From: Promethearchaeota archaeon
GTDB taxonomy: Archaea > Asgardarchaeota > Lokiarchaeia > Sigyniarchaeales > SOKP01
Assembly: GCA_030603385.1 (NCBI GenBank)
Contig: JAUVXW010000005.1
Coordinates: 92,568 to 156,567 of the forward strand
Direction of reading: 5' to 3'
DNA length: 64,000 nucleotides
This document shows, one piece after another, positions 33,677 to 63,436 of this stretch (position 1 is its first letter; each line of letters begins with the position of its first letter). The translations under genes were made by a program, and so were the position numbers. The notes below the pieces were generated by a model that did not search any database, was not told the DNA's origin, and saw nothing but the letters and a program-made list of their open reading frames with translations.

Positions 33677-35245
33677 ATGAAATTATCAGTTAAAGAAATC
33701 AATTTTGAAACAGGAAATACTAAAAATATTGTTTTAAACATTAAAGATGCACAAGAATTAGGACAAAAAGCAGGAGAGCGTATATTTATCAAAAATCTGC
33801 ATTCTAAAACTATAGAAGATAAATTTTGGACAGCTATTATACAAATAGATTATTCAAGCACAATAGTAAAATCCGGTGAAATTGGGATCTTCTTAGATAT
33901 ATTACGAGAAAAAAAGAGTTTGAAAAATAGCATTATGGTATCTGTGAAACCAGCTGATCCACCTGAATCTTTCAAATTTATTCAAAAGAAAATTAAAGGA
34001 AATAAGTTGAAAAGTGAGGAAATTAATGCTATTATCTCTGATGCAGTTTCAGGGTCATTATCTCGAATTGATCTAGCAGCGTTTATCACAGGAGTCTCTA
34101 TTATCGGAATGGATAAAGAAGAGATGACAGCATTAACCTTAGCAGAAACTAAGAGTGGGGAGATATTTTATTTCGGGATGGATGTCTATGATAAGCACAG
34201 TACAGAAATTTACATTTAGTAAGTTTTGCTGATTGGTGGCGTCCCAGGGAATAAGGTTTCTCTTATTATTGTTCCAATTGTAGCAGCAGCGGGCCTAACT
34301 ATTCCAAAATCTTCAACCAGAGCAATAACATCACCTTCAGGGACGGCAGATTCAATGGAAGTATTAGCACCAGTTGCATTTAACCCAAATGAACTAAATG
34401 AAATCGTGTCTAAAGAAAATGCATGCATAATTTGGGGTGGAGCGCTTGAAACCGCGCCAGCAGATAATATTTTAATCGAGATTGAACGACCTTTACATAT
34501 GGATCCAGTAGGCCTTATGATTCCTTCAATACTCACTAAAAAACTTTCATTAGGTGTTAAAAAACTTGTTCTTGATATCCCTGTTGGAGAAGGCACTAAA
34601 TTTCCAACTCCCGCTAATGGAAAACAATTTGCTTATTTATTTAAAGAAATTGCCGCTAATGTAGGAATTGAAGCAGAATGTGCATTAACATTAGCTCATC
34701 AACCAATTGGCCATGCTGTAGGACCAGCGATAGAAGCAAGGGAAGCTTTAAATTTACTAATGGATTATTCTGCTGGACCGAATTCTTTGGTAGAAAAATC
34801 TACTGATTTAGCCGGAATTATTCTTGAAATGAGTGGAAAAGCTCAGAAAGGTATGGGTCAAAGTCTAGCGAAAGATATTCTGCGTTCTGGTAAAGCTTAT
34901 GAGAAAATGAAAAGAATTATTGATGCTCAAGGTGGTAATCCTGATATAAAATCTGATGAAATTGAGCTTGGACCATATATGAAAGAATTTTTTGCCGCAA
35001 AAGAAGGATATATAGTCGAAGTAAATAACTCAATAATAAATCAAATAGCAAAAACAGCTGGATGTCCTAGCTCGAAGAGTTCTGGTGTGGAAATAATAAA
35101 AAAACAAGGAGCAAAGGTAAAAGAGGGAGATATTGTTTTCAGGATTTATTCTCATAGCCAATCCAAACTAAGAAAAGCAGAAAAAATCTACAATTCTACT
35201 GGTGGCCCAATTCGTCTTGGAGGAATGATCATCGAACGTATTTAA
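33677..35245 (+). CDS. AMP phosphorylase (thymidine phosphorylase family), split by a 30-nt candidate intron; spliced product 512 aa
   Basis: Both ORFs are in the same frame; DKHS|GGVPGNK motif interrupted; SSTRAITSPSGTADSMEV, QPIGHAVGPAIEARE; N-terminal domain typical of AMP phosphorylases. Confidence 0.88.
34204..34233 (+). other. candidate BHB/BHL (tRNA-endonuclease-type) mRNA intron
   Basis: 4-bp helix CAGT/GCTG, 3-nt bulge ACA, 9-bp inner stem GAAATTTAC/GTAAGTTTT; contains in-frame TAG TAA; removal restores DKHSTGGVPGNK. Confidence 0.72.
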
Positions 35246-35305: not shown

Positions 35306-36796
35306 ATGCCCCTAACCCCAAAAGCAATTTATAAGGATTTAGTAAATAAGGATCTAGATAAACCATTTGCGATAGAACTGTTGCTAACTCTTATAGATAA
35401 TGCAGAAAATGTTGAAACACGTATAGAAAGCATTAAAATATTGAATAATATTCAAGTTGAAGATGATAAGACCTTTAAATTCTTAGAACATCTATTGATT
35501 TCCGATCTAAATGAAGAAGTAAGAAATCAAACAATTTTAGTCATAAAGAATCATTATTTAGATAGGGCTCTTGATCCTATGATATGGGCTCTTGAACATG
35601 AACGAACGCTAAAATGTTTGATTTCAATTATATTAACTATAGGTGAGATTGATACTGATGAAGCCAAATCTGTTTTAATTAAAAAATTAAAGAAACTCAA
35701 TAAAAAGGAAGGCTACTATATTTTAAAACATCAATTCGCAAAAGATACCATAGGAAAAATTCCAAATACGGAACTTGCAGAAATTATAATAAATTACTAT
35801 ACTATTTCATTTTTAAAAAAAACCTTTGGTCATTTTAAATTTAAAAATAACGAATTCGGGCGGATCACTGAATTAGATTTATCCAATGTTGAAAGATATA
35901 ATTCTGGTTTAAATAAATTAGAAAATTTTCTTGAATCAATCTTATCCCTAAAAGATCTTGAAAAATGTGATTTACGATTTAATCACCTAACAAAAGTTCC
36001 CGAGATTTTAAATAAATCAATTGAATATCTAGATTTAAGTTATAATAAATTAGTAAATCTACCTGATCTTCACAATTTCACAATACTTAAAAGTTTGAAT
36101 TTAAAATCAAATAGATTGAGAAATCTTCCAGACCCCATAGGTTCACTTTTATCACTTGAGTATTTGAATCTAAGAAATAATATGCTAAAAACTCTCCCTG
36201 AATCAATAAGTTTTCTGTCTTCACTGAAAGTTTTAGATTTACATGGAAATAAATTAAACTCTATAACTGCAAATCTAAATAAATCAATAAGAGAATTAGA
36301 GTTAGGTTGGAATAATTTTGAGATAATTCCAAATGGTATAAAACTTCTATTATCATTGGAAAGGTTAGGATTAGGTGGTAATAAAATAATTAATTTACCA
36401 GATTGGATTGGAAGGTACAATTCACTTAAACAATTAGATCTATATGATAATCAACTAATTAAAGTTCCAGAATCACTAGGATCACTTGAATCTTTAGAAA
36501 GATTGAACTTAAGAAATAATCAATTAAATGAACTTCCTTCTTCATTATCCAATTTAAAATCACTTAAAAATTTAAACCTAAGTTGGAATAATTTTAAAAT
36601 TCTCCCAGAATGGATTGGATCACTGCCTCTATTAGAAGAATTAAATCTGTGGGGTAATCTACTTGAGATTGTTCCTGAAACAATTGCTTCACTTTCCTCA
36701 TTAAAAATATTGGATTTGAATTTCAATAAAATTGAGGAAATACCACCATTTTTAAAAGAATTAGAACAAGAAAAAGGGCTTATTATAAAAATTTAA
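35306..36796 (+). CDS. HEAT-like N-terminus + LRR protein
   Basis: FKFLEHLLISDLNEEVR; many LxxLNLxxNxLxxLPxSIGxL repeats. Confidence 0.88.
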   Translation: MPLTPKAIYKDLVNKDLDKPFAIELLLTLIDNAENVETRIESIKILNNIQVEDDKTFKFLEHLLISDLNEEVRNQTILVIKNHYLDRALDPMIWALEHERTLKCLISIILTIGEIDTDEAKSVLIKKLKKLNKKEGYYILKHQFAKDTIGKIPNTELAEIIINYYTISFLKKTFGHFKFKNNEFGRITELDLSNVERYNSGLNKLENFLESILSLKDLEKCDLRFNHLTKVPEILNKSIEYLDLSYNKLVNLPDLHNFTILKSLNLKSNRLRNLPDPIGSLLSLEYLNLRNNMLKTLPESISFLSSLKVLDLHGNKLNSITANLNKSIRELELGWNNFEIIPNGIKLLLSLERLGLGGNKIINLPDWIGRYNSLKQLDLYDNQLIKVPESLGSLESLERLNLRNNQLNELPSSLSNLKSLKNLNLSWNNFKILPEWIGSLPLLEELNLWGNLLEIVPETIASLSSLKILDLNFNKIEEIPPFLKELEQEKGLIIKI

Positions 36797-48280: not shown

Positions 48281-49612
48281 TTAATCTTCTATTAATGCGG
48301 TTTTACCACTACCCCATACTCCAAGTGCGATCCCTAATTCTTTGTGTTCTTTAGCAACTTGTTTTACATTTTTTCCTTGCATAACAGCATCAATTGCTTG
48401 TCTAAATGCTTTAGCGCCAGATGTTGGACCATCAGGATGACTATGAATACCACCACCACTACCAATTAAAATATCATTACCGGCTTCTTTCATACATTTT
48501 TCAACCATTCCAGGTGTAATTCCTCCACTGGGCATTGGTAATGTTGGTTTGATATGTTGAAATGGAAATCGAAGTGCTTTAAGATTCTGCTCATATCTCT
48601 CATCTAATATCTCGGCTTTTCCATAAGGTGCAGGAATTACAACTGTATCAGCACCACAAATTCGTGGTAATTTTGCAAAAGTTAGCATACTAGTCATTCC
48701 TGTCCATATCCCCCCAAAGTAAGTCCCTCCAAAATCCATATGCCCTAAAATAGGAACTTTTATTGATGGATCTTCGGCAATTTGTCTTAGAGCTTCAAAT
48801 CCAGTAGTTAAGTAATTTATCATTAAGGCATTGGCTCCTAATTCTATCATCTTATCGGCGTATTCGAACATTTCCGGGAATTTAGTGGTAATATTTATAG
48901 TGTATAATGTTTTTTCTCCTTTTTCTGAGTCTGCTCTATCAACAGCTTCCATAACTTTTACAATTCTTTCTTCTAATCTATTAAAAGAAGGGTTTGATAT
49001 TAATTCATCATCTTTTACCACATCACAACCACCAACGGCAGCTTTGTATACTAGATCTGCCGCAACATCTGCTGTATGCCCTGTACAAGGCTTTACCATA
49101 TTGTTTAAAAGAGGACGTTCTGGTACATTCATTAATTTTCGTAAACCATCGATCCCAAACTTAGGTCCTTTAAAATCCTCTAACCATGCTTTAGGGAAAG
49201 CCAGATCTACTAATTTTAATCCGTGTGTAATGCTAATATTTCCAATAACTGTTGTAAAAAGCATTGGTATTCCCATTCCTTTAATATTTATAATAGGAAA
49301 CCCGATTTGTACAAAATAAATTCGTTCCTTAATATCTTTAGGCACCACATATTCTATGTGAGGCAATTCATATACTCCAAGCACTCTTGCTACATGATGT
49401 TTTCTAACCTCTTCTGTCTCAGCAGGAACTCGAACCCATGTTCCTGTTGATTGTTCGATTGCCACGAATCTAGAGAGATAGTTAACATTTTGTCCCTTAG
49501 GGCGTTTTATAATATAACTTGCAATAATATATTTTTCTAAATCTATACCGTCTAAGCCAATGGCTTCTGGAGTATCTAAATATTTTTCACAGCTAGGAAA
49601 GTTTTTATCCAT
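48281..49612 (-). CDS. RuBisCO-like protein (form IV)
   Basis: EQSTGTW, VKDDE and PSGG retained, but VKPCTG (second Lys lost), GHMD instead of HRA, and the His before loop 6 is absent. Confidence 0.88.
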   Translation of the reverse strand: MDKNFPSCEKYLDTPEAIGLDGIDLEKYIIASYIIKRPKGQNVNYLSRFVAIEQSTGTWVRVPAETEEVRKHHVARVLGVYELPHIEYVVPKDIKERIYFVQIGFPIINIKGMGIPMLFTTVIGNISITHGLKLVDLAFPKAWLEDFKGPKFGIDGLRKLMNVPERPLLNNMVKPCTGHTADVAADLVYKAAVGGCDVVKDDELISNPSFNRLEERIVKVMEAVDRADSEKGEKTLYTINITTKFPEMFEYADKMIELGANALMINYLTTGFEALRQIAEDPSIKVPILGHMDFGGTYFGGIWTGMTSMLTFAKLPRICGADTVVIPAPYGKAEILDERYEQNLKALRFPFQHIKPTLPMPSGGITPGMVEKCMKEAGNDILIGSGGGIHSHPDGPTSGAKAFRQAIDAVMQGKNVKQVAKEHKELGIALGVWGSGKTALIED

Positions 49613-63331: not shown

Positions 63332-63436
63332 GCAGATGTAGCCTAGCTGGTAAGACGCCAGCTTCGAGTATATTTCTCATCATTCGAGAAAGCTGGTGCG
63401 CGGAAGCGTTCGGGGGTTCGAGTCCCTCCATCTGCG
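63332..63436 (+). tRNA. tRNA-Ser(CGA) with 22-nt intron at 37/38 (63369-63390)
   Basis: Acceptor GCAGATG/CATCTGC, G73, anticodon stem CCAGC/GCTGG, long variable arm, T-loop TTCGAGT; TTCG pairs with intron CGAG; CCA not encoded. Confidence 0.92.

What the first reader, a model, noticed from the sequence alone, without database searches (positions are those of the whole stretch)
34180..34244. tRNA-type (BHB/BHL) intron inside a protein-coding gene: AMP phosphorylase
Seen: the two halves (33677-34219 and 34226-35245) are in one frame. They are separated by exactly 30 extra nt containing TAG TAA, inside the family motif DKHS[T/I]GGVPGNK. The RNA folds as a central 4-bp helix C34198-T34201/G34228-G34231, a 3-nt bulge ACA, a 9-bp inner stem (34205-34213/34219-34227, 5-nt loop) and a second unpaired ATT. 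A distal exon-exon helix GGATGTC 34180-34186/GGCGTCC 34238-34244 closes it. Cutting after the second nucleotide of each bulge (the EndA rule) removes 34204-34233 and gives AGT ACT GGT GGC = S-T-G-G, a full 512-aa enzyme. Known: archaeal mRNA introns of this type are best known from crenarchaeal cbf5. Inference: this is an Asgard mRNA intron spliced by the tRNA endonuclease/ligase, possibly linking nucleotide salvage to RNA-splicing activity. Annotation pipelines would call it a pseudogene. The helix directly outside the 3' bulge is weak, so the motif is BHL-like rather than strict BHB.
Basis: partly seen in the sequence, partly recalled or inferred. Interest (0 to 1): 0.9.

Follow-up and report, generated by a model that had tools for sequence, protein, structure and literature searches.

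The report
tRNA-type mini-intron in AMP phosphorylase
The only AMP phosphorylase gene of this Asgard (Promethearchaeia) archaeon is broken inside its active-site motif by a 30-base insert shaped like a tRNA intron. Comparison with about 50 related copies indicates that the tRNA-splicing enzymes must cut it out of the messenger RNA, which the papers I could search report for only one archaeal coding gene (cbf5).

Summary
ORFs 33677-34219 and 34226-35245 are in one frame, separated by 30 extra nt (TAG TAA) inside DKHST|GGVPGNK. They match the AMP phosphorylase profile at positions 2-165 and 166-500, so they abut exactly.

The intron reading is strongly supported by comparison, although no RNA was seen.
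- **Distribution:** the insert sits at the same site in 35 of the 119 genomes of this family that have the gene, across 10 genera. It was not found in the 18 genomes with the gene from the three other families of the order.
- **Length:** it is 29, 30 or 31 nt long, so in some lineages only exact excision restores the frame.
- **Structure:** across 35 distinct variants the 4-bp central helix and the inner stem are 97.4% paired, and 10 of 13 pairs show compensatory changes. Synonymous exon sites covary with intron bases.
- **Selection:** all 21 same-genus spliced ORFs are intact at 512 aa, with dN/dS 0.065, the same as intronless orthologs.
- **Machinery:** the genome has one RtcB ligase, a catalytic EndA alpha subunit with the broad-specificity loop residues, and a beta subunit lacking the catalytic His.

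A regulatory link to nucleotide salvage is unsupported. This scan has already reported the same intron on other genomes. It is a new member of the cbf5-type kind.

The parts
33677..34203 (+). Exon 1 of AMP phosphorylase (175 codons + AC of the Thr176 codon): N-terminal domain and helical-bundle domain, ending ...DKHS-AC
   Evidence: ORF list. Pfam Glycos_trans_3N. NCBIfam TIGR03327 AMP_phos profile positions 2-165.
34204..34233 (+). 30-nt bulge-helix-bulge-type intron (A + 9-nt stem strand + 5-nt loop + 9-nt stem strand + 4-nt H' + AT), holding in-frame TAG 34217-34219 and TAA 34220-34222
   Evidence: Sequence. Absent at exactly this point in intronless orthologs, which read DKHSTGGVPGNK. Present at the same site in 35 family genomes.
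34234..35245 (+). Exon 2 (T of the Thr176 codon, then GGVPGNK... to stop TAA 35243-35245): alpha/beta catalytic domain and C-terminal domain
   Evidence: Pfam Glycos_transf_3 and PYNP_C. TIGR03327 profile positions 166-500.
34198..34201 (+). Central helix H, exon strand (CAGT: last base of the His codon plus the Ser codon)
   Evidence: Pairs with 34228-34231. 99-100% paired across relatives. Synonymous His and Ser sites covary with the intron strand.
34228..34231 (+). Central helix H', intron strand (GCTG)
   Evidence: Pair column 3/36 is U-A in 22 variants and C-G in 13, never broken.
34202..34204 (+). 5' bulge ACA; predicted cut between 34203 and 34204
   Evidence: Sequence. The bulge is ACA or ACU in all 49 copies examined. 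The cut rule (between the 2nd and 3rd bulge nucleotide) is as stated for cbf5 in PMC2738675.
34232..34234 (+). 3' bulge ATT; predicted cut between 34233 and 34234
   Evidence: Sequence. In relatives the bulge is AAA, AAC, ACT, AAT, AAG or ACA. Joining AC to its third base always gives a Thr codon.
34205..34227 (+). Inner hairpin h': 9-bp stem 34205-34213/34219-34227 with loop ATTTA 34214-34218
   Evidence: Predicted in every fold. 96.5% paired, and 8 of 9 pairs have compensatory changes.
34180..34186 (+). Distal exon-exon helix, 5' strand (GGATGTC)
   Evidence: Pairs with 34238-34244. 97.3% paired in intron-bearing genes against 81.1% in intronless ones, with the difference at synonymous sites. 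There are no double changes, so support is weaker.
34238..34244 (+). Distal exon-exon helix, 3' strand (GGCGTCC)
34166..34174 (+). Possible further outer exon-exon helix, 5' strand (pairs with 34248-34256)
   Evidence: Predicted only by RNAalifold. All its columns are coding and nearly invariant, so it is untested.

Best explanation
Window 34204-34233 is a 30-nt archaeal bulge-helix-bulge (BHB) type intron, of the relaxed 'BHL / HBh'' form, inside the single AMP phosphorylase gene.

Proposed mechanism:
1. In the pre-mRNA the last four exon-1 bases before the Thr codon (CAGT) pair with GCUG near the 3' end of the insert. This forms the 4-bp central helix.
2. A 9-bp intron hairpin stacks on one side of that helix. 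Longer-range exon-exon helices hold the other side.
3. Two 3-nt bulges (ACA and AUU) are left on opposite strands.
4. The host's heterotetrameric (alpha-beta)2 splicing endonuclease EndA cuts after the second nucleotide of each bulge, and RtcB joins the exons.
5. The product reads ...CAC AGU AC|U GGU GGC..., restoring DKHSTGGVPGNK and a 512-aa enzyme.
6. Unspliced RNA can only give a truncated 180-aa product, because every variant carries an in-frame stop or a frameshift.

Shown here: the insert, its conserved co-varying structure, intact and purifying-selected exons, and the presence of the enzymes.
Inferred: that EndA and RtcB are the enzymes acting on this mRNA, the exact cut positions, and that splicing occurs at all, since no RNA data were found.

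The intron is old. It is found across the family and has been lost precisely many times.
For: **Same site, many species.** The insert sits between AC and the third base of the Thr codon in 21 of 46 same-genus genomes that have the gene. It is also in 14 genomes of 9 other genera of the family, in metagenome contigs and in further public contigs.

**Length varies but the frame is always restored.** The insert is 29, 30 or 31 nt long. At 29 or 31 nt exon 2 is out of frame in the DNA and only exact excision gives DKHSTGG.

**Structure.**
- 97.4% of cells are paired in 35 distinct variants, and 10 of 13 pairs carry compensatory changes.
- Slid-partner controls give 31-48% pairing, and 0 of 500 shuffles reach the observed values.
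- In the central helix, the His-codon third base (C or U) covaries perfectly with the intron base (G or A): 22 U-A and 13 C-G.
- The helix is paired 4 of 4 in all 14 copies from other genera.

**Exons are alive.** All 21 same-genus spliced ORFs are intact at 512 aa. Median dN/dS is 0.065 among intron-bearing pairs at dS of about 1.4, the same as among intronless pairs.

**The exons abut.** Exon 1 matches TIGR03327 positions 2-165 and exon 2 matches 166-500. G000 has one copy of the gene.

**Machinery in G000.**
- Two EndA paralogues and one RtcB are present.
- The alpha subunit is most like *A. pernix* EndA alpha (3P1Z_B, E 8e-36). It keeps the catalytic Tyr, His and Lys. Its K55-P-R57 aligns with K44 and R46 of the Crenarchaea-specific loop, which confers BHL cleavage.
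- The second paralogue lacks the catalytic His.
- Published work finds (alpha-beta)2 EndA with this loop in Asgard archaea (PMC5829648).

**Cut register.** Cutting after bulge base 2 gives ACN (Thr) in every copy. Cutting after base 1 would give Ile, Lys or Asn at an invariant Thr.

**Precise losses.** The gene tree needs at least 8-10 changes of state. One intronless and intron-bearing pair is 96.4% identical in nt.

**Same build elsewhere in this genome.** Inserts with the same 30-nt architecture split rnhB (DEAGR|GP) and uvrB (YYDYYQPE|AYMP).
Against: - I found no spliced transcript, cDNA or circular intron.
- On the single sequence the BHB conformer is not the minimum-energy fold (-20.5 against -23.6 kcal/mol), and the fold z-scores are only about -1.9.
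- There is no helix directly outside the 3' bulge, so the motif is not a strict hBHBh'. Cleavage depends on a broad-specificity enzyme whose activity on this substrate is untested.
- RNAalifold prefers a register in which A37 pairs with U62, which would make the central helix 5 bp.
- The distal helix shows no double compensatory change and lies in coding sequence.
- The sequences compared are relatives, so the shuffle controls overstate significance.
Confidence: 0.88

Rival explanations
1. Split enzyme. The insert divides the gene into two separately translated polypeptides, 180 aa ending ...DKHSTEIYI and 339 aa starting at the in-frame TTG 34226. These assemble non-covalently, and the conserved hairpin serves stop-restart coupling.
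For: An in-frame TTG, GTG or ATG lies 2-4 codons before GG in most variants, and gene callers use it: 'MLKGGVPGNK', 'MLIGG...'. Both pieces are under purifying selection, which this model also predicts.
Against: - The break falls inside the invariant phosphate-loop motif DKHSTGGVPGNK and would add foreign residues on both sides of it.
- In L201 an in-frame TAG lies three codons before GGT GGA with no start codon between them, so the called product begins after the Gly-Gly.
- The TTG is explained by the structure: it is the end of the stem strand plus the first base of H'.
- Covariation between exon bases and insert bases, two 3-nt bulges at fixed distances, and repeated exact losses restoring DKHSTGG play no part in this model.
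Confidence: 0.05
2. Translational bypassing (ribosome hopping, as in phage T4 gene 60 or the yeast mitochondrial 'byp' elements). The ribosome takes off at Thr176, skips the hairpin and lands before GGT, so no RNA processing is needed.
For: It is a short insert with a hairpin and a stop codon soon after the take-off point. Both flanks are conserved, and a full-length protein would result.
Against: - Bypassing needs matching take-off and landing codons. Here the take-off codon is ACA or ACU, while the codon before GGN is AUU, AAA, AAC, AAU, AAG or ACA, which is mostly unmatched.
- The central helix that pairs exon bases with insert bases and covaries has no role in hopping.
- The architecture is exactly that of the host's tRNA-splicing substrate.
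Confidence: 0.03
3. Inherited pseudogene or assembly artefact. The 30 nt is a disabling insertion, or a mis-assembly, in a dead gene.
For: There are two in-frame stops. Annotation pipelines call fragments.
Against: - The insert appears in 35 independently assembled species genomes and in many metagenome contigs.
- Exons are intact in all 21 same-genus copies, with dN/dS 0.065 at dS of about 1.4, the same as intronless orthologs.
- It is the only copy of the gene in G000.
- RuBisCO large-subunit homologues, partners in the AMP pathway, are present.
Confidence: 0.01

Closest known systems
BHB-type intron in the cbf5 (pseudouridine synthase) pre-mRNA of Crenarchaeota (Watanabe 2002; Yoshinari 2006; Yokobori 2009, PMC2738675)
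   Same: - A short intron inside a protein-coding sequence, at a catalytic motif.
- A relaxed or unconventional BHB motif, with predicted cuts between the 2nd and 3rd bulge nucleotides.
- Dependence on a hetero-oligomeric, broad-specificity EndA.
- A patchy distribution explained by gain and precise loss.
   Different: - A different gene (AMP phosphorylase) and a different phylum (Asgard/Promethearchaeia).
- A stereotyped size of 29-31 nt built as 1 + stem + loop + stem + 4 + 2.
- No RNA or enzymatic proof here, whereas cbf5 splicing was shown by cDNA and in vitro cleavage.
Archaeal tRNA and rRNA BHB introns, including the many non-canonical tRNA introns of Asgard archaea (Marck and Grosjean 2003; PMC11291895; bioRxiv 10.64898/2026.10.13.758758)
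   Same: The same recognition motif (4-bp helix between two 3-nt bulges), the same enzymes (EndA and RtcB) and a similar size. Half of the motif is made of exon sequence.
   Different: The host RNA is an mRNA, so the exon half of the motif must also encode protein. Here it uses synonymous His and Ser codon positions. Excision must also restore a reading frame.
Unconventional cytoplasmic splicing of HAC1/XBP1 mRNA in eukaryotes (IRE1 cleavage, ligation by Trl1 or RtcB). This comparison rests on my own knowledge and was not tested here.
   Same: A small intron (26 nt in XBP1) is removed from an mRNA by a non-spliceosomal endonuclease, and in metazoa the ends are joined by RtcB. Removal changes what the mRNA encodes.
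   Different: The nuclease is different (IRE1, not EndA/TSEN) and so is the motif (twin stem-loops). That system is regulated by stress, and there is no evidence of regulation here.
BHB element in a Haloferax volcanii mRNA 5' UTR processed by EndA (PMC7714728; listed, text not read by me)
   Same: An mRNA as a substrate of the archaeal splicing endonuclease.
   Different: According to this scan's earlier notes it lies in a 5' UTR, not within a coding sequence, and the host has a homodimeric EndA.

Membership tests
Archaeal bulge-helix-bulge (EndA-type) introns | Central helix of exactly 4 bp between the two cut sites | tested here: met
   34198-34201 pairs with 34228-34231. It is 99-100% paired with 2 of 4 pairs compensatory, and 4 of 4 paired in 14 copies from other genera. 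An alternative 5-bp register (A37-U62) is possible.
Archaeal bulge-helix-bulge (EndA-type) introns | Two 3-nt bulges on opposite strands flanking the central helix | tested here: met
   ACA at 34202-34204 and ATT at 34232-34234. The spacing is kept in all copies even where total length is 29 or 31 nt, because the length change lies in the hairpin. In L200 the first inner pair is missing, so the 5' bulge may be 4 nt there.
Archaeal bulge-helix-bulge (EndA-type) introns | Flanking helices h (outer, exon-exon) and h' (inner) directly adjoining the bulges (strict hBHBh') | tested here: not met
   h' is present (9 bp, 8 of 9 pairs compensatory). There is no helix directly outside the 3' bulge (A.G mismatch, then at most 2 bp). 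The nearest solid exon-exon helix is separated by an 11 x 6 nt internal loop. It is therefore a relaxed HBh'/BHL form, not a strict BHB.
Archaeal bulge-helix-bulge (EndA-type) introns | Excision at the bulges yields a functional mature RNA | tested here: met
   Cutting after bulge base 2 restores DKHSTGGVPGNK and a 512-aa ORF in all 21 same-genus copies. At the junction it restores AC|N GG, which is DKHSTGG in frame, in the 29- and 31-nt copies. The two exons abut at TIGR03327 positions 165 and 166.
Archaeal bulge-helix-bulge (EndA-type) introns | Cleavage by EndA and ligation by RtcB shown on the RNA | not testable with these tools
   No transcript data were found. Only the genes are shown: EndA alpha and beta, and RtcB.
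Host enzyme able to cut relaxed (BHL) motifs: (alpha-beta)2 EndA with the Crenarchaea-specific (L1) loop | Two paralogous subunits, one catalytic (Tyr/His/Lys) and one structural, and a loop with the conserved Lys/Arg (K44/R46 of A. pernix) | tested here: met
   The C44 protein (198 aa) aligns with 3P1Z_B without a gap over the loop, with K55-P-R57 opposite K44-P-R46, and keeps Tyr, His and Lys. The C9 protein (200 aa) has Thr where M. jannaschii EndA has the catalytic His. The role of the loop is taken from PMC3241643. Asgard EndA type is taken from PMC5829648. Enzyme activity is not tested.
AMP phosphorylase (DeoA, TIGR03327; archaeal AMP/NMP degradation pathway) | Full-length match to the equivalog model above its cut-off, with the DKHS[T/I]GGVPGNK motif | tested here: met
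   The intronless ortholog P0002 (96% identical in exon 2) scores 568 bits against a cut-off of 535. The two exons of the window score 107 + 451 bits over profile positions 2-165 and 166-500. The closest solved structure is 4GA5/4GA4, E 3e-124. Enzyme activity is not tested.

The most novel reading that the evidence does not exclude
This intron is one instance of a lineage-wide class of stereotyped mini-introns of about 30 nt. They populate many protein-coding genes of Promethearchaeia; in this genome at least AMP phosphorylase, rnhB and uvrB carry one. Under this reading EndA/RtcB splicing of mRNAs is routine in the closest archaeal relatives of eukaryotes. Translation of these genes must wait for RNA processing. 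Introns are gained at new sites and lost precisely, most simply through cDNA of spliced RNA.
Probability: 0.55. Interest if true: 0.85.

Novelty: new member of a known kind. Interest (0 to 1): 0.7.

Why it matters
**What is new.** In the papers I could search, splicing of an archaeal protein-coding sequence by the tRNA endonuclease is documented only for cbf5 of Crenarchaeota. The 2009 paper says that no other gene had been confirmed. [quoted passage not shown] The comparative signal is unusually clean: 35 species genomes plus further public contigs (about 50 copies examined), three intron lengths, and covariation between codon wobble positions and intron bases.

**Consequences if the mRNA is spliced.**
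- Gene callers systematically mis-annotate such genes as fragments or 'hypothetical proteins', so Asgard metabolic reconstructions undercount intact genes.
- Translation of these mRNAs cannot simply be coupled to transcription.
- The repeated exact losses point to an active route from spliced RNA back to DNA, or to frequent allele replacement.

Each of these is directly testable, now that members of this phylum have been brought into culture (listed).

Tried and rejected
- **RNA evidence: none found.**
  - The protein search with exon 2 gave no 512-aa protein more than 96% identical to G000.
  - No 512-aa representative is 99% or more identical to any 339-aa split form.
  - The JGI metagenome scan gave 66 loci. 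The only near-identical intronless and intron-bearing pair (G020 and L113, 96.4% nt) looks like two strains, not a transcript.
  - Logan contigs carry no metadata that would tell RNA from DNA.
  - Ten clusters of split forms held one 512-aa member, and it comes from a MAG.
- **Genome-wide BHB plus ORF scans of G000: not informative.**
  - The strict scan recovers this locus, but most hits are tight gene junctions. A mirror-repeat null was useless because homopolymer runs inflate it (127 real hits against 458 null).
  - In a relaxed scan the splice-consistent frame class (56) was no larger than the two shifted-frame control classes (56 and 61). The scan therefore cannot count introns statistically.
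  - Of five candidates checked by Pfam, two were plain gene junctions and three were inconclusive.
- **Mobility: no support.** G000 holds no other copy within 7 mismatches of the 30 nt. A looser hairpin pattern returned only AT-rich noise.
- **Second intron in genus g12: rejected.** The shorter open frames (419-431 aa) are simply genes without the N-terminal domain, and their DKHSTGG motif is uninterrupted.
- **Pseudogene, artefact, split enzyme and ribosome hopping** were considered. The reasons against each are given under the rival explanations.
Full report
**1. The observation**

The window reads GAT AAG CAC AGT ACA GAA ATT TAC ATT TAG TAA GTT TTG CTG ATT GGT GGC GTC CCA from 34190 on. Two ORFs, 33677-34219 (180 aa) and 34226-35245 (339 aa), share one frame. 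The first carries the Glycos_trans_3N domain and the second carries Glycos_transf_3 and PYNP_C.

Against NCBIfam's AMP phosphorylase equivalog (TIGR03327) the first ORF covers profile positions 2-165 and the second covers 166-500. Nothing is missing or duplicated except the ten extra codons. Removing 34204-34233 gives a 1539-nt reading frame of 512 codons plus the stop.

On the single sequence the fold is unremarkable. The z-scores are about -1.9, and the bulge-helix-bulge (BHB) conformer is 3.1 kcal/mol above the minimum-energy fold. The single sequence alone would therefore not carry the claim.

**2. Relatives**

The window is contig C10 of a 3.89-Mb, 30.8% G+C assembly. Its relatives are MAGs titled Promethearchaeia or Promethearchaeota, that is Asgard archaea.

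Among the 54 species genomes of its genus, 46 have the gene. Reading the junction in each gives two classes:
- 21 carry a 30-nt insert between the AC and the third base of the Thr codon;
- the others read DKHSTGGVPGNK without interruption.

A search of 154 genomes of the order found the interrupted form in 14 more genomes from nine other genera of the same family. Counting G000, that is 35 of the 119 family genomes that have the gene. It was not found in the 18 genomes with the gene from the three other families searched.

In those 14 the insert is at the same site but is 29, 30 or 31 nt long, and its hairpin sequences differ widely. Two further public contigs carry 29-nt versions. Where the length is not a multiple of three, exon 2 is out of frame in the DNA. 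Only exact excision at the bulges restores DKHSTGG.

Metagenome contigs from marine sediments add more variants. One split form (P0193, KKN40153.1) is a record titled 'marine sediment metagenome', locus tag LCGC14_0736170.

**3. Structure**

- central helix: 100% paired, 2 of 4 pairs with changes on both sides;
- inner stem: 97.4% paired, 5 of 9 pairs with changes on both sides;
- distal exon-exon helix: 97.3% paired.

*Wider alignment.* On 35 distinct variants, including distant ones, 97.4% of cells pair and 10 of 13 pairs carry compensatory changes. Pairing drops to 31-48% when partners are slid by 1-3 columns, and 0 of 500 shuffles reach the observed values. The sequences are relatives, so the shuffles overstate significance. 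The slid controls and the number of distinct pair types do not depend on that.

*The most telling pair.* The first pair of the central helix joins the third base of the His codon (C or U, synonymous) to an intron base (G or A). It is U-A in 22 variants and C-G in 13, and is never broken. The Ser codon is always AGY in intron-bearing genes, but TCN in 9 of 25 intronless ones.

*Independent prediction.* RNAalifold recovers the central helix, the inner stem and the distal helix, and adds a further outer helix made of invariant coding columns. It also offers a register in which A37 pairs with U62, giving a 5-bp central helix. This is the main structural ambiguity.

*The weak side.* No helix adjoins the 3' bulge. 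There is an A.G mismatch, at most 2 bp, and then an 11 x 6 nt internal loop.

*The distal helix.* It is largely dictated by the coding sequence: it is 81% paired even in intronless genes. Synonymous sites nevertheless favour pairing in carriers. For example, the third base of the second Gly codon is C in 18 of 21 carriers against 2 of 25 intronless genes. Shared ancestry could contribute to that difference.

**4. The gene is alive**

After removal of the insert, all 21 same-genus genes give intact ORFs of 512 aa from the conserved MKLKVK start.

Median pairwise dN/dS is 0.065 among intron-bearing genes, at a median dS of about 1.4. Both exons give the same value, and it equals the value among intronless genes. 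G000 against its nearest carrier G019 gives 0.088.

G000 has a single copy of the gene. It also has two RuBisCO large-subunit homologues, one of them in this window at 48314-49156 on the minus strand. This fits a working AMP degradation pathway.

The closest solved structure to an intact ortholog is deposited as 'Putative thymidine phosphorylase' (4GA5/4GA4, E 3e-124). From my own knowledge this is the *Thermococcus kodakarensis* AMP phosphorylase. Its motif reads DVHSIGGVPGNK. A pseudogene or an assembly artefact is excluded.

**5. Machinery**

G000 encodes one RtcB and two EndA paralogues of about 200 aa each.
- The first is most like the catalytic alpha subunit of the *Aeropyrum pernix* heterotetramer (3P1Z_B, E 8e-36). 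It keeps the catalytic Tyr, His and Lys. It aligns without a gap through the Crenarchaea-specific loop, with K55-P-R57 opposite K44-P-R46.
- That loop, and K44 in particular, was shown to confer cleavage of BHL and misplaced introns (PMC3241643).
- The second paralogue has Thr in place of the catalytic His, as expected of a structural beta subunit.

This agrees with published surveys that find (alpha-beta)2 EndA with the L1 loop in Asgard archaea (PMC5829648; bioRxiv 10.64898/2026.10.13.758758). The host therefore has the kind of enzyme that cuts relaxed motifs in non-tRNA contexts.

**6. Cut sites**

The cbf5 work places the cuts between the second and third bulge residues (PMC2738675). Applied here, the 5' exon ends in AC and the 3' exon starts with the third base of the 3' bulge, which is U, A, C or G in different copies. 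The result is always ACN, which is Thr, the residue invariant in intronless orthologs.
- A cut one base earlier would give Ile, Lys or Asn, so it is excluded.
- A cut one base later would also give Thr, so the sequence cannot exclude it.

**7. History**

On a codon-alignment tree of 51 genes the intron is present in the earliest branches of the main genus clade. Intron-bearing and intronless genes are interleaved. At least 8-10 changes of state are needed.

Given its presence across ten genera with recognisably related architecture, the simplest reading is one old gain followed by many exact losses. Allele replacement by recombination is not excluded. One intronless genome (G020) and one intron-bearing metagenome contig (L113) are 96.4% identical in nt around the site, so loss or replacement is recent and continuing. 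G000 holds no other copy of this 30-nt sequence, so there is no sign that it is a mobile repeat.

**8. Rivals**

- *Split two-chain enzyme.* It would put foreign residues into the phosphate-loop motif. It fails in L201, where a stop lies three codons before Gly-Gly with no start codon between. It also gives no role to the exon-insert covariation.
- *Ribosome hopping.* It needs matching take-off and landing codons. Here they are ACA or ACU against AUU, AAA, AAC, AAU, AAG or ACA, which is mostly unmatched.
- *Read-through.* It is excluded because all 35 variants have an in-frame stop or a frameshift.

**9. Context in the same genome**

I checked two leads from this scan's earlier notes.
- The only RNase HII match is interrupted by one TAA. 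The sequence shows a 30-nt insert at C17:18136-18165 inside DEAGR|GP. It has central helix UGGU/ACCA, bulges AGA and AAA, a 9-position stem with one mismatch, and loop AUUUC.
- My scan also recovered a 30-nt insert in uvrB at C4:251907-251936. It has central helix CCAG/CUGG and joins YYDYYQPE to AYMPVSG.

All three share the build 1 + 9 + 5 + 9 + 4 + 2. My own genome-wide scans could not show statistically how many more exist.

**10. What is known, and novelty**

Full-text searches found tRNA-intron surveys of Asgard archaea and the cbf5 literature. They found no report of a BHB intron inside an Asgard protein-coding gene.

The mechanism is that of cbf5. The gene, the phylum and the stereotyped mini-intron form are new, so I class it as a new member of a known kind. 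This scan has already reported the same AMP phosphorylase intron on several other genomes, and other mini-introns in this genome. Those are AI notes, and I re-derived everything used here.

**11. Verdict**

Confidence that this is an EndA-type intron removed from the mRNA is 0.88. The missing piece is RNA-level proof.

Noticed in passing
window 63332-63436 (+): A tRNA gene (Rfam RF00005, 42.3 bits). ARAGORN finds it only when introns are allowed, and reads it as tRNA-Ser(CGA) with a 22-nt intron. Even with introns allowed, ARAGORN finds only 22 tRNA genes in the whole 3.9-Mb genome. Many tRNA genes are therefore probably hidden by non-canonical or multiple introns.
   Followed up: partly
G000 contig C17:18136-18165 (L208:1524-1553, +): The only RNase HII (rnhB) match in the genome is split inside GIDEAGR|GPVLGP by a 30-nt insert holding TAA. 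It has the same build as the AMP phosphorylase intron: central helix TGGT/ACCA, bulges AGA and AAA, a 9-position stem and loop ATTTC.
   Followed up: partly
G000 contig C4:251907-251936 (+): A 30-nt BHB-shaped insert (central helix CCAG/CTGG, bulges AAA and AAG) joins ...VSYYDYYQPE to AYMPVSGMFIEKD..., the classic UvrB motif. It has long open frames on both sides (321 and 1707 nt).
   Followed up: partly
G000 contig C26 minus strand (L203:451-482) and C55 plus strand (L204:283-312): Two further candidate mini-introns from my scan. A 32-nt insert follows the Walker B motif DEIDKAD of an AAA ATPase. A 30-nt insert lies near the start of a LURP-one-related (LOR) domain. The Pfam evidence was inconclusive: exon 2 of the ATPase gave no hit on its own, and the LOR match starts at profile position 32 in exon 2.
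   Followed up: partly
window 48314-49156 (-): A RuBisCO large-subunit homologue (PF00016, 167.6 bits, open frame 448 aa) lies 13 kb downstream of the AMP phosphorylase gene. A second, stronger match is on contig C27. It may be the type III RuBisCO partner of the AMP pathway, or a RuBisCO-like protein.
   Followed up: no
L011 (G020) and L113 (Ga0114921_10131345): An intronless gene and an intron-bearing gene are 96.4% identical in nt over 814 nt around the junction. This suggests presence/absence polymorphism of the intron at about species level.
   Followed up: partly
G065: C103 (L031) and C128 (L045): One MAG holds two AMP phosphorylase genes, one intronless (93% identical to G000 exon 2) and one with the intron (86%). 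With 9% estimated contamination this is probably a mixed bin rather than a true paralogue pair.
   Followed up: no
L223 (G077, genus g12) and three other g12 genomes: The AMP phosphorylase homologues of this genus have open frames of only 419-431 aa. The DKHSTGG motif is uninterrupted, and the gene simply lacks the N-terminal domain of about 85 aa.
   Followed up: yes
window 35306-36796 (+): The next gene downstream encodes a 496-aa protein with HEAT-like repeats followed by many leucine-rich repeats. The same neighbour follows the split gene in a Logan contig (L125).
   Followed up: no
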